Source: Octopus vulgaris
Lineage: Eukaryota
Reading direction: 5' to 3'
NCBI GenBank assembly: GCA_951406725.2
Contig: OX597817.1
Span: forward strand, 145,142,001-145,206,000
DNA length: 64,000 nt
How positions within the stretch are numbered: the first letter of the stretch is position 1; the number at the start of each line of letters is the position of its first letter. A program made the translations under genes and the position numbers. A model generated the notes under the pieces. It saw only the letters and a list, made by a program, of their open reading frames with translations. It did not search any database and was not told where the DNA came from. Shown in pieces: positions 12,004-62,218 of the stretch.

Positions 12004-12357
12004 TGTTTCTGTCATTTGACTGCGCCCATGCTGGAGCACCACCTTTAGTTGAGCAAATCGACCTGAGGACTTATTCTCTGTAAGCCTAGTACTTATTCTA
12101 TCAGTCTCCCATTGCTGAACCACTAAGTTATAGGGATGTAAACGCACCACCATCGGTTGTCAAGCGATGTTGCGGGGACAGACACACATACATATATATG
12201 ACGAGCTTCCTTCAGTTTCCATCTACCAAATTCACTCACAAGGCTTTGGTTGGCCCGAGGCTATAGAAGACACTTGCCCAAGGTGCCACACAGTGGGAAT
12301 GAACCCGGAACCATGTGGTTGGTAAGCAAGCTACTTACCACACAGCCACTCCTGCAC
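12004..12357 (-). mobile_element. SINE family A
   Basis: Full reverse-complement copy ending cacagccactcctgc. Confidence 0.85.
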
Positions 12358-14827: not shown

Positions 14828-15428
14828 CTTTTATATTTCAATCATTTCAGCTATTGGACTGTGGCCATGCTGGGGCATCACCTCGAAGAGTTTAATCAAA
14901 CAAATTTACTCCAGTACTTATTTTTAAGTCTGGTATTTATTCGTCTCTTTTGTCAAACTACTAAGTTACAGGGATGCAAACAAACTGACACTGGTTGTTG
15001 AGTGGTGTGAGGGGACAAACACAAGCACACACATGCATGTGACAGGTAAGGCGGCGATCTGGCAGAAACGTTAGCACGCCAGGTGAAATGCTTAGCGATA
15101 TTTTGTCTGTTTTTACATTCTGAGTTCAAGTTCTGTCAAGGTTGACCTTTGTCTTTCGTCCTTTCAGGGTCAATAAATTATGTACCAGTTGCATACTGGG
15201 ATCGATCTAATCAACTGGCCCCCCTCCCCCAAAATTCCAGGCCTTGTGCCTAGAATAGAAAGGAATATATGTGACAGGTTTCCACAGAATTTTGGTCCAT
15301 TTAGCAAGGCATTGGTTGGCCTGTGGTTATAGTAGCAGACATTTGCCCAAAGTGCTGTGTAGTGGAACTGAACCCAAAACCACATGGTTACAAAGTAAGT
15401 TTGGTAACCACTTGGCTGTACCTGCTCC
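14828..15428 (-). mobile_element. Decayed SINE family A interrupted by a family B insertion
   Basis: Family A tail half at 14828-15036 and head half at 15280-15428. Confidence 0.7.
15048..15268 (+). mobile_element. SINE family B with 11-bp TSD
   Basis: aaggcggcgatctggcagaaacgttagc...agaaaggaat, flanked by ATGTGACAGGT at 15037-15047 and 15269-15279. Confidence 0.9.
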
Positions 15429-15554: not shown

Positions 15555-15755
15555 TACTTGGTTTCCATGGCATATAAATGACTGAGATCATATTCCTCAT
15601 GAACGGGACCCCTGTCCATCACAGGGTTACTGTTTTACAGCCGAGTGGACTGGGGCAATGTGAAAGAAAGTATTTCTGCTCAAGAACACAAGGCACCATC
15701 CTGTACAGGAATTGAAACCGTGATCTTACAATTGTAAGTGCAGCACCCTTAATCA
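15555..15755 (-). mobile_element. SINE family E (decayed)
   Basis: Reverse-complement similarity to 28656-28906 (gagtggactggggcaatgtgaaa...gctcaagaacacaa). Confidence 0.6.
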
Positions 15756-15784
15756 TTTCAAATTCATTCTAGAATTGCCTATGG

Positions 15785-16085
15785 GTATATAGTATAGTGG
15801 ATAAGAGCACGGGATACTAACTCTCGGATTCTGAGTTCAGTCCCAGGTAGGGACTGGGGAAATAATATCAACAGAAAAACTAACATCAGCAAAAAAGAGT
15901 ACCTTAGGAATGAGAACAGAGTACCCCATTAGTCAAATAAAGGGTTGGGTTCGAAATTCCACCAGGACACCTGATGAAGGCTGGAGAGTACATCAGCTGA
16001 AACATTGTGGTAAGAACAAGTAAGGTTAGGACACCTATCCCTCTATTGTAAATAATGTTAATTCCTCATCTCAAAAATATAAAAT
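15785..16085 (+). mobile_element. tRNA-headed SINE-like element containing a hammerhead-ribozyme motif
   Basis: A-box-like TAGTATAGTGG (15790-15800), B-box-like GAGTTCAGTCC (15833-15843), hammerhead motif at 15968-16009. The 3' boundary is approximate. Confidence 0.6.
15968..16009 (+). ncRNA. Minimal (Penelope-type) hammerhead ribozyme motif, probably decayed
   Basis: cac-CTGATGA-a-GGCTG(gagagtacat)CAGCT-GAAAC-ATT-gtg. Two CpG-type changes separate it from an intact ...CAGCCGAAACGTTGTG. Confidence 0.6.
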
Positions 16086-16744
16086 AGTATCAGGCCATAC
16101 ACTCTCACAGTCTGAAGATGCAGGGAGCGATAAAAATAGAACTAAAATGGAAAGAAAGTACTGAAGATCTACATTGGCAAAACAAATATTTCTAAAAATA
16201 TGTGATTTAGCTTTGGAGATTTCATTCTATTTCTTTGCTTAAACTGTTGCTTTCTACATATTTCTGTGAGTCATTCCATTCTTCAGATATATTTGGAATT
16301 CTGACTAACTCAATGGTCATATTTGTAAATAAGCTTCCAGGAAGGTCTTGTGTAACTTTAGGCTTCCTTTCAATGAGCCTGAATTAACCTTTTTTTTTTT
16401 ATATATATCTTTTGATGTAACATCTAGTTTCATAGCAATGTGTCATTGTTATTGATTTTTGGCCCCAGGCCATCTCTGATTAAGCAAGCCTACAACCAAA
16501 AACTTTCCAGTCTTGTTGATTCCACCTTATTTTTATTTTTGAAGACTAAATTACCTGGTGTCTCTTTCATTGTTGAAAATGGTATAGTGTAATTTGAAAG
16601 GATTTTGGTTACTATTTTTAGCAAGATTTGTTGTGGGGAAGTCAATGAGTTTCATTTTGTGTATGACTAACTGTAAGGCAAAACTTTGAAATAACTAGTA
16701 ATCTTGCCATGTAAAATTATATATACATGTACATATATATAGAA

Positions 16745-18350: not shown

Positions 18351-21145
<2,795 letters not shown>

Positions 21146-28655: not shown

Positions 28656-28906
28656 GAAGGCGCGTGGCTTAGTGGTTAGGGTGTTAGCATCATGATCATA
28701 AGATTGTAGTTTCGGTTCTTGGACCGGGCGACGCGTTGTGCTCTTGAGCAAAACACTTCATTTCACGTTGCTCCAGTCCACTCAGCTGGCAAAAATGAGT
28801 AACGCTGCGATTGACTGGCGTCCCGTCCAGCTGGGGAATATATACGCCATTGAAACCGGGAAACCGGGCCCATGAGCCTGGCTAGGCTTTAAAAGGGTGC
28901 ATTTAT
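28656..28906 (+). mobile_element. tRNA-derived SINE family E, CpG-rich (young-looking) copy
   Basis: A-box TGGCTTAGTGG, CORE-like ttgtgctcttgagcaaaacact, gactggcgtcccgtccag. Related copies at 40320 and 63410, and on the minus strand at 15555 and 32065. Confidence 0.75.
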
Positions 28907-40189: not shown

Positions 40190-40594
40190 TGAATTCATAA
40201 AGGTGACCAGCAGAAGTTGGTGTTGTTATTGTTGAAAAGATGGTGAATAACTTTGTAGGTTTCTACTAAGTCAGTGGCTAAATATTGAAACTTTAGTAAC
40301 AACCTACTCAAATAAGCTTCTGGCCTTGTGGTTAGGGTGTTGCATTCAGAAACAAAAGATTGTGGTTTCAATTCCCAGACCAAGCAGTGCATTGAGTTCT
40401 TGATCAAAACACTTCATTTCACATTGTTTCAGTTTTACTTAGTTGTAAAATGAGTCACCATGTGACGGACCGGTATCCCATTCAGAGGGAGTGTTGTGAT
40501 CTTTGTCACTTACATGACATGTAAACCATGCTGACCAGCCCTGAGTCCTTGGAATCAGGACACGAAAGATCTTATTCAAACATGATTAGCTTTT

Positions 40595-40950
40595 TCTTTT
40601 ATCTTTTACTTGTTTCAGTCATTAAACTGCGACCATGCTGGAGCACTACCATGAATCAACTCCAATATTCCTGGTGCTTATTCTATCATTCTCTTTTGCC
40701 AGACTACTAAATCACAGGGACGATAAACAAACCAACACCAGTTACCATGTGGTGGAGAGCACAAAGGCACACACACATATACACACACGAAAGGCTTCCT
40801 TCAGCTTCCATCTACCAAATCCACTCATGAGGGTTTGGTTGGTTCGAGGCTATTGTAGAAGACACTTGCCCAAGGTGCCATACAATGGGACTGAACCCAG
40901 GACCATGTGGTTGGGAAGCAAACTTCTTACCATACAACCACACCCGCACC
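40595..40950 (-). mobile_element. SINE family A
   Basis: Reverse complement of family A. Confidence 0.75.
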
Positions 40951-60192: not shown

Positions 60193-60599
60193 AGGCGCAG
60201 GAGTGGCTGTGTGGTAAGTAGCTTGTCTACCAACCATATGGTTCCGGGTTCAGTCCCACTGCATGGCACCTTGGGCAAGTATCTTCTACTATAACCTTGG
60301 GCCGACCAAAGCCTTGTGAGTGGATTTGGTAGACGGAAACTGAAAAAAGCCCGTCGTATATATGTATATATATATATATATATGCTTGTGTGTCTGTGTT
60401 TGTCCCCTAGCATTGCTTGACAACCGATGCTGGTGTGTTTACGTTCCCGTTACTTAGCGGTTCGGCAAAAGAGACTGATAGAATAAGTACTGGGCTTACA
60501 AAAGAATAAGTCCCAGGGTCGAGTTGCTCGATTAAAGGTGGTGCTCCAGCATGGCCGCAGTCAAATGACTGAAACAAGTAAAAGAGTAAAGAGTAAGAG
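60193..60599 (+). mobile_element. SINE family A, CpG-rich young copy
   Basis: aggcgcaggagtggctgtgtgg...ggccgcagtcaaatgactgaaacaagtaaaagagtaaagag. Confidence 0.9.
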
Positions 60600-62056: not shown

Positions 62057-62218
62057 TACGATGGGCTTCTTTAAGTTTCTGTCTACTAAATCCACTCACA
62101 AGGCTTTGGTTGGCCTGAGGCTATAGTAGAAGACACTTGCCCAAGGTGCCACACAGTGGGACTGAACCCAGAACCATGTGGTTGGTAAGCAAGCTACTTA
62201 CCACACAGCCACACCTGT
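61812..62218 (-). mobile_element. SINE family A
   Basis: Full reverse-complement copy. Confidence 0.9.

What the first reader, a model, noticed from the sequence alone, without database searches (positions are those of the whole stretch)
15785..16085. tRNA-promoter SINE that carries a hammerhead ribozyme (candidate Pol III retrozyme / Penelope-dependent SINE)
Seen: a tRNA-like head with A box (15790-15800) and B box (15833-15843). About 130 nt downstream lies cac-CTGATGA-a-GGCTG-loop-CAGCT-GAAAC-ATT-gtg. The two departures from an intact minimal hammerhead (T15998, A16004) are both what CpG deamination of CAGCCGAAACGTTG would give. Established: minimal type I hammerheads with an extra nucleotide after CUGANGA, a palindromic mini-stem III and a short stem I are hallmarks of Penelope-like element terminal repeats and of animal retrozymes, whereas ordinary SINEs end in LINE-derived tails. 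Inference: this is a Pol III-transcribed non-autonomous element that self-cleaves (probably as a dimer) and borrows a PLE RT rather than a LINE RT. I do not know this combination as a described system. Only one copy is in the window.
Basis: partly seen in the sequence, partly recalled or inferred. Interest (0 to 1): 0.85.

Follow-up and report, generated by a model that had tools for sequence, protein, structure and literature searches.

The report
Penelope retrotransposon with tRNA-gene promoter
This is not a SINE but the broken-off end of a protein-coding Penelope-type jumping gene; that end holds a hammerhead ribozyme motif and a tRNA-gene-like promoter at which many copies begin, so the element was likely transcribed by RNA polymerase III, an enzyme thought to serve only non-coding elements.

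Summary
The A box, B box and minimal hammerhead are real, and both hammerhead defects are CpG decay. The unit is not a SINE. Window 15760-16090 is a 5'-truncated pseudo-LTR (pLTR) of an autonomous Penelope/Poseidon element of about 2.65 kb with a single RT + GIY-YIG ORF. The tRNA-like head lies about 30 nt after the ORF stop. The next unit's ATG lies between head and hammerhead, and the ORF reads through the ribozyme. In the abundant sister subfamily, 30 of 46 copies that reach the head stop within 8 nt of tRNA +1 (3.3 expected), which marks the RNA 5' end. These short copies carry no private change or shared frameshift, so they look like by-products of the coding element. The majority sense strand has no T4 Pol III terminator in 2,642 nt (P 0.008-0.08). 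One unrelated intact PLE (L231) has a similar layout. Best reading: a protein-coding PLE whose template RNA is made by Pol III (about 0.6). Main rival: a TATA-driven Pol II start at the same place. Pol III plus hammerhead is already known in non-coding schistosome SMalpha; I found no report of it in an autonomous element.

The parts
15760..16090 (+). 5'-truncated pLTR of a Penelope/Poseidon element, subfamily A (whole insert)
   Evidence: 308 of 330 identical to the subfamily A majority; same pLTR follows GIY-YIG and RT sequence in longer copies L180, L186, L183, L172
15760..15782 (+). spacer between ORF stop and tRNA-like head (the stop codon and the TATAA motif at -34 are cut off in this copy)
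   Evidence: aligns to the majority upstream of +1; shared by EN-bearing copies
15783..15855 (+). tRNA-derived head; +1 = 15783, inferred transcription start region -7..+1
   Evidence: subfamily B head 48 of 72 identical to a genomic tRNA-Arg(TCT), best of 30 tRNA loci of six isotypes; 5'-end pile-up
15790..15800 (+). A box (CpG-decayed)
   Evidence: column counts
15833..15843 (+). B box, with A58>G in this copy
   Evidence: A in 25 of 34 other copies
15856..15909 (+). A-rich linker ((AAT)n microsatellite in subfamily B)
15910..16090 (+). 5' end of the ORF (ATG 15910), reading through the hammerhead; stopped at 16021-16023 by mutation in this copy
   Evidence: translation; open into the RT body in natural tandem copies L106 and L098; matches N-terminus of intact relative P0003, 9 of 19 identical, E 0.008
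15968..16009 (+). minimal type I hammerhead motif (palindromic mini-stem III, GUU triplet, predicted cut after 16006); two CpG hits in this copy
16059..16090 (+). optional ~30-nt PLE 'tail'
   Evidence: 3' ends are bimodal about 30 nt apart: 54 and 37 of 99 B segments, same in A

Best explanation
The segment is the truncated pseudo-LTR of an autonomous Penelope/Poseidon retrotransposon whose pLTR carries tRNA-derived A and B boxes, and copies pile up at the tRNA start, so the element's template RNA was likely made by RNA polymerase III. Shown: unit order is ORF (RT, GIY-YIG) - stop - TATAA - tRNA-like head - A-rich linker - ATG - hammerhead - tail - next ORF body. Inferred: in a partial tandem the upstream pLTR starts a transcript at about -7..+1 that can run through the T4-free unit. 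The element's RT starts internally at the two tail ends (by analogy with PAc). A start in the 5' pLTR runs off at the transcription start and leaves 265-295-bp SINE-look-alikes; a start in a downstream pLTR leaves randomly 5'-truncated copies such as the window's. Uncleaved RNA is the main template; the hammerhead would cut only as a dimer or with protein help, and a cut would separate the ATG from the rest of the ORF. How an uncapped RNA would be translated is open; protein may come from Pol II read-through of other copies. The window copy is probably dead (B-box and core mutations, in-frame stop).
For: Full ORF in the majority of 20 long copies; Pfam RVT_1; GIY-YIG motif; A and B lineages differ at 33 synonymous vs 19 non-synonymous codons of 281. 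5' ends of 99 B segments: 30 of the 46 that reach +8 stop in -8..+8, hazard 0.058 per nt against 0.0044 downstream and 0.0036 upstream, P about 1e-23. L106 starts at +4 and runs 910 nt into the body; L098, L110, L120 have new pLTRs starting at -5/-4/-5. 30 short vs 64 ORF-linked pLTRs: no private allele, no shared frameshift. No T4 in 2,642 nt of B or 1,185 nt of A majority. Relatives: 59 T4 in 23.7 kb, 15 of 16 intact ORFs and 29 of 32 ORF-to-HHR intervals have T4. 23 of 29 host tRNA loci have T4 within 25 nt downstream. L231, an intact tandem PLE from another source, has TATAAG at -31, A box, B box, A-rich linker, ATG and hammerhead; chance of one such hit in 32 shuffled intervals 0.007. Inverted 5' neighbour in 68 of 99 and bimodal tail.
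Against: No transcript data: only assembled contigs were available, which cannot show starts. T4 absence alone is weak: P 0.008 (mononucleotide), 0.079 (dinucleotide), 0.044 (synonymous shuffle); G4 is also absent; T4-free stretches of 1.7-2.1 kb occur in relatives without boxes (L243, L262, L237, L483). TATAA at -34 puts a Pol II start at the same place. Box conservation between A and B is not by itself significant (about 10 differences in 75 nt, none at 11 invariant sites; rough P 0.2, my estimate by eye). L231 has two T4 runs, and its head scores only 6.1 bits (E 3.6) on a host-tRNA profile; the window head was not reported at E<=20 and the B majority scored 12.6 bits. The pile-up is much weaker in the A-pattern sample (5 of 30 at +1..+6, 12 of 30 extend >90 nt upstream), which also held B-like copies. 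The 99 segments are the first listed on one contig, and both arms of one insertion were counted. L104 and L099 have upstream pLTRs starting at -61/-65, which need a longer-than-unit template.
Confidence: 0.6

Rival explanations
1. Same autonomous PLE, but transcribed by Pol II from the TATAA motif at -34; the tRNA-like sequence is a captured remnant that happens to sit at the start site or acts as a downstream element.
For: TATAA first T at -34 predicts a start near -4, where many ends lie (11 of 42 anchored ends at -3..-7). Other PLE pLTRs have TATA/Inr-like or internal TATA-less promoters (PMC3846280 passages; PMC2377424 abstract and Discussion). A capped RNA explains translation. T4-free ORFs occur in some relatives.
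Against: Intact box spacing exactly at the start; whole unit T4-free while 29 of 32 control pLTR intervals have T4; 10 of 29 host tRNA loci also have a TATA-like motif at -40..-21; L231 repeats the layout; L106 suggests tandems that lack the TATAA exist.
Confidence: 0.25
2. One reading: a separate non-autonomous Pol III SINE/retrozyme lineage that self-cleaves and borrows a PLE RT.
For: Short copies starting at +1 are the commonest single class and far outnumber ORF-bearing ones (4,734 exact B-type HHR words vs 1,837, 486 and 256 candidates for EN, RT and N-terminal probes). Masters made of a pLTR plus a body fragment cannot be excluded (L106, L110, L120).
Against: Short copies match ORF-linked pLTRs, with one site differing (+64, polymorphic among ORF-linked copies) and no shared frameshift. 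Ends carry the PLE tail and inversion, not HHR-defined ends. The window copy starts upstream of the head. No tandem arrays of the short unit seen in the loci examined.
Confidence: 0.08
3. The pile-up at +1 comes from RNase P-type cutting of a longer transcript or from RT stalling at a structure, not from a promoter.
For: The modal end is +1..+3, where RNase P would cut a tRNA.
Against: Acceptor and T stems are broken, which RNase P needs (established knowledge, recalled); 11 of 42 anchored ends keep 3-7 nt upstream of +1.
Confidence: 0.07

Closest known systems
Penelope/Poseidon PLEs, e.g. PAc of Anolis carolinensis (PMC11167929, parts 1-2 of 4 read; PMC4209133, parts 1-2 of 4; PMC8557442 passages)
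   Same: Single RT + C-terminal GIY-YIG ORF, partial tandems, inverted 5' arms, optional 30-nt tail, min-HHR in the pLTR overlapping the ORF start, uncleaved RNA as main template. RT-EN part 38-44% identical to an Anolis protein, P0091.
   Different: pLTR holds a tRNA-derived A/B-box head at which copies begin; no such box pair in 31 of 32 related pLTR intervals. ATG lies about 60 nt (A) or 34 nt (B) before the core rather than at stem II.
Schistosome SMalpha / Sjalpha SINE-like repeats (review PMC6765202 and PMC8490949, passages; original papers not held)
   Same: Pol III-type promoter followed by a hammerhead; upstream copy drives the downstream one in tandems.
   Different: SMalpha is non-coding with a canonical, efficiently cutting HHR; here the unit is part of a 2.65-kb coding element with a minimal HHR.
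Animal non-LTR retrozymes (PMC7229834 passages; bioRxiv 10.64898/2026.07.22.740005, parts 1-3 of 5)
   Same: Type I HHR, short units related to PLE pLTRs.
   Different: Retrozymes are tandem non-coding arrays with an HHR in each unit; here short copies are dispersed solo or inverted pLTRs that end at PLE tails.
TRIMp3: Cassandra, Helenus, Ajax (PMC10886601 passages)
   Same: Small-RNA-derived Pol III promoter inside a terminal repeat.
   Different: Those are non-autonomous LTR elements of 0.3-1.3 kb; the paper argues autonomous partners must use Pol II.
Octopus tRNA-Arg-related SINEs OR1, OR2, OK (Ohshima and Okada 1994; not held, recalled)
   Different: OR2 is a CORE-SINE (PMC4758252 passage), whereas this body is coding sequence plus HHR. 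OR1 and OK could not be compared.

Membership tests
Penelope/Poseidon PLE | Single ORF with RT and C-terminal GIY-YIG endonuclease, no linker Zn finger | tested here: met
Penelope/Poseidon PLE | Partial tandem pLTRs and inverted 5'-truncated arm | tested here: met
   tandems; inverted arm in 68 of 99
Penelope/Poseidon PLE | Optional 30-40-nt tail | tested here: met
   54 and 37 of 99 3' ends in two modes about 30 nt apart
Penelope/Poseidon PLE | Minimal hammerhead in the pLTR | tested here: met
   free position N7 varies (A in 13 of 55 ORF-linked copies)
Penelope/Poseidon PLE | Placement against named clade references | tested here: inconclusive
   quick tree of 36 rows held no Neptune/Nematis outgroup; assignment rests on domain layout and homologues
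tRNA-derived SINE | A and B boxes from a tRNA at the 5' end | tested here: met
   for the short +1 class; not for the window copy, which starts 23 nt upstream
tRNA-derived SINE | Non-coding lineage separate from its partner | tested here: not met
   body is the ORF 5' end; no private alleles or shared frameshifts
tRNA-derived SINE | Simple-repeat or LINE-derived 3' tail | tested here: not met
   3' ends are PLE tail ends
tRNA-derived SINE | Transcribed by Pol III | not testable with these tools
   indirect only; no raw reads
Non-LTR retrozyme | Tandem non-coding units each with an HHR | tested here: not met
   dispersed solo/inverted copies and ORF-linked copies
Non-LTR retrozyme | Self-cleavage and circular RNA | not testable with these tools
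   proxy: 4 of 92 5' ends at the cut site vs about 1.1 expected, P 0.025, two from one insertion

The most novel reading that the evidence does not exclude
A protein-coding, autonomous retrotransposon that is transcribed end to end (2.9 kb) by RNA polymerase III from a captured tRNA promoter, has purged Pol III terminators from its ORF, sheds tens of thousands of SINE-look-alike copies as by-products, and has arisen at least twice among Poseidon-type PLEs (G000 and L231): a direct route from an autonomous PLE to SMalpha-like Pol III retrozymes.
Probability: 0.4. Interest if true: 0.85.

Novelty: new variant of a known kind. Interest (0 to 1): 0.62.

Why it matters
The papers I read state that autonomous retrotransposons use Pol II and only short non-coding ones use Pol III (PMC10886601, PMC5786205, passages). 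A coding element run by Pol III would break that rule and raise a testable question: how is an uncapped RNA, whose start codon sits just before a ribozyme cut site, translated? The pile-up also maps a PLE transcription start from genomic copies alone and fits the internal-initiation model shown in vitro for PAc. It offers an origin for Pol III + hammerhead repeats like SMalpha. It also warns that repeat pipelines may file many PLE by-products as SINEs.

Tried and rejected
Rfam (gathering on the window, E-value mode on the element, on L231 and on nine loci) and ARAGORN found no tRNA or hammerhead family match. Pfam missed the isolated EN piece. A search of G000 with a distant PLE protein returned only this family in 30 of 30 loci, so there is no within-genome control for T4 content. 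Viral contigs held no relatives. tRNA-like hits in other control loci (L233, L244, L258, L260, L271) were neighbouring SINE-like repeats, not pLTR parts. The covariation count on six hammerheads is void: my structure string and the alignment were out of register. Unconstrained folding of monomers and dimers did not give the hammerhead fold, so it says nothing on activity. An empty-site test for insertion into an older SINE found 0 of 17 hits spanning the junction. Laying contigs of four runs showed the element in all four but no starts or ends; depth there is not copy number. The careful tree did not finish; the quick one puts L231's protein (P0089, identical) on a long branch away from the G000 clade. 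OR2 identity rejected; OR1/OK and Repbase entries could not be checked. Identity with a pure 'ordinary pLTR with chance boxes' was rejected on the 5'-end pile-up.

Full report
OBSERVATION. Rfam and ARAGORN see nothing in the window. The segment is a repeat of G000 with 3,425 first-look candidates (40 scored). In 35 aligned segments head and hammerhead go together. Column counts over the 34 other segments show the core kept in 31-34 of 34 at non-CpG sites and split C/T or G/A at 15998, 15999, 16003 and 16004, which is CpG decay; 2 of 34 are fully intact.

THE HEAD IS NOT THE 5' END OF THE ELEMENT. Several copies share 330-520 nt upstream of the head, which translate to a GIY-YIG endonuclease. 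Walking upstream gave a 2.65-kb element. The majority of 20 long copies has one open frame of 782 codons with RT and EN (Pfam RVT_1). There are two pLTR types. A (the window's) has 213 exact matches of a 27-mer hammerhead word, B has 4,734; the reversed controls have 0. A has its own RT/EN copies (22 of 30 loci carry an A-specific motif, the longest over 2.2 kb). Its ORF differs from B at 33 synonymous and 19 non-synonymous of 281 codons, so both were coding lineages. Long copies are 89-96% identical to the B majority; none seen was intact. The window copy spans 15760-16090, starts 23 nt before tRNA +1, and is 93% identical to the A majority.

PLE SIGNATURES. Partial tandems, an inverted arm at the 5' end in 68 of 99 B segments, and two 3' ends about 30 nt apart (54 and 37 of 99) match PLE descriptions (PMC8557442 passages; PMC3846280 passages). 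The ORF starts in the pLTR (window ATG 15910) and reads through the hammerhead into the body in natural copies L106 and L098 (2 of the 5 tandems in which the ATG was found; the others carry stops or shifts). Intact relatives P0003 and P0149 begin with the same hammerhead-coded peptide. The A/B difference here is an in-frame 27-nt indel. ORF-HHR overlap, internal RT starts that define the tail, and use of uncleaved RNA are reported for PAc (PMC11167929, parts 1-2 of 4).

WHERE COPIES BEGIN. I took the first places listed on contig C1 for the B word (90 loci, 99 segments, selected only on the hammerhead word). 53 end between +170 and +9, 30 end in -8..+8, and 16 go further up, 12 of them by more than 20 nt. 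Of 46 that reach +8, 3.3 were expected to stop in the window at the downstream rate; 30 did (P about 1e-23). Both arms of an insertion were counted, so the segments are not fully independent. With an anchored walk, 23 of 42 ends lie at +1..+7 and 11 at -3..-7. L106 starts at +4 and continues 910 nt into the body; L098, L110 and L120 have a pLTR starting at -5, -4, -5. The RNA template therefore began at the head. In the 30 A-pattern loci the pile-up is weaker (5 at +1..+6, 12 far upstream), and that set includes B-like copies.

NOT A SEPARATE SINE. 30 short copies and 64 ORF-linked pLTRs differ at P<0.01 at two sites: +64, polymorphic among ORF-linked copies, and +174, fixed by my selection word and the free N7 of CUGANGA. 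No frameshift is shared by more than two short copies. Ends at the hammerhead cut are few: 4 of 92 at +205..+207 against about 1.1 expected (P 0.025; two are one insertion). The simplest reading is that short copies are run-off products of RT started at the 5' pLTR of the coding transcript (inference from PAc).

POL III OR POL II. For Pol III: the boxes sit at the start; the B head is 48 of 72 identical to a host tRNA-Arg(TCT), best of 30 tRNA loci covering six isotypes; stems are broken while boxes are kept. The sense strand has no T4 in 2,642 nt of B or 1,185 nt of A; 6 of 20 decayed natural copies have none and 2 of 20 have a T5. Among 79 related loci from other sources, the 16 intact ORF matches of 1 kb or more hold 59 T4 in 23.7 kb and 1 of 16 has none (two rows are the same element); 3 of 32 ORF-to-HHR intervals have none. 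23 of 29 host tRNA loci have T4 just downstream. L231 is an intact tandem PLE (855 aa; 38% identity to the query) with TATAAG at -31, A box, B box, A-rich linker, ATG and hammerhead; it is 1 of 32 intervals matching a box pattern fixed beforehand, chance 0.007. Against: T4 absence has P 0.008, 0.079 and 0.044 under three shuffles and G4 is absent too; several box-less relatives have 1.7-2.1 kb without T4; L231 has two T4 and a weak tRNA score; TATAA at -34 fits Pol II as well, though 10 of 29 host tRNA loci have a similar motif. No raw RNA reads were offered. An uncapped RNA poses a translation problem that I cannot resolve.

WHAT IS KNOWN. min-HHRs in pLTRs with an extra base after the core and a palindromic stem III: PMC4209133 (parts 1-2 of 4). 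Pol III plus hammerhead in non-coding schistosome repeats: PMC6765202 and PMC8490949 (passages; the 1998 original not held). Retrozymes as PLE derivatives: bioRxiv 10.64898/2026.07.22.740005 (parts 1-3 of 5; its supplements are closed) and PMC7229834 (passages). Pol III promoters in non-autonomous LTR elements, with the statement that autonomous partners must use Pol II: PMC10886601 (passages); similar in PMC5786205 (passages). Penelope's own promoter: PMC2377424 (abstract and Discussion). An octopus repeat annotation lists Penelope families without this feature in the passages seen (PMC13282606). Ten full-text searches showed no autonomous PLE with a tRNA-derived promoter; most hits were seen only as listings, and Repbase, SINEBase sequences and subscription papers were out of reach, so it may be noted there. 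That some ruminant BovB LINEs carry captured tRNA-SINE sequence at their 5' end is recalled, not checked.

EARLIER NOTES OF THIS SCAN. Three notes describe non-coding tRNA-bearing units with PLE-type insertion marks in other genomes. I did not test them; they suggest tRNA modules and PLE mobilisation meet more than once.

VERDICT. Observation confirmed; the SINE reading is replaced. Membership in the PLEs is firm (about 0.97), an RNA start at the tRNA head is strongly supported (about 0.85), and Pol III is the favoured but unproven polymerase (about 0.6). New variant of a known kind; interest 0.62.

Noticed in passing
window about 15600-15759: An older, minus-strand tRNA-headed repeat abuts the 5' end of the insert (matches L020:2214-2341); by eye 16091-16110 could continue its A-box region, but the empty-site test found no spanning match.
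   Followed up: partly
window 60221-60263, 40328-40377, 40881-40924, 62152-62194, 12290-12331, 28662-28718, 15364-15419: Further tRNA-like heads, probably other SINE families (host-tRNA profile, 10-13 bits).
   Followed up: no
L231:2790-3030 (JGI1357J11328_10009043): Intact tandem PLE (two identical 2,791-nt units) with A/B-box-like head before the hammerhead; host unknown; by eye the head resembles an intron-bearing tRNA-Tyr (recalled, not tested).
   Followed up: partly
P0001-P0009, cluster of P0006: The closest relatives (53-72% over the RT piece) are mostly unnamed; the cluster of P0006 holds barnacle (Amphibalanus amphitrite) proteins, and the quick tree groups them with the G000 element: possible horizontal transfer.
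   Followed up: no
L098, L103, L109, L110, L117, L119, L120: Body fragments of 460-720 nt joined directly to a new pLTR piece: template jumps or short non-autonomous units; several junctions fall near body position 460-500.
   Followed up: no
L232, L238, L243, L258, L262 (3' of the ORF): Related PLEs have T-rich tracts just before the hammerhead, like an intron 3' splice site as in Drosophila Penelope; the G000 element and L231 lack such a tract.
   Followed up: no
L480-L486: Penelope-type ORFs inside contigs filed under bacterial MAGs, most likely host DNA contamination.
   Followed up: no
window 18360-20000 and beyond: Very long AT dinucleotide array.
   Followed up: no
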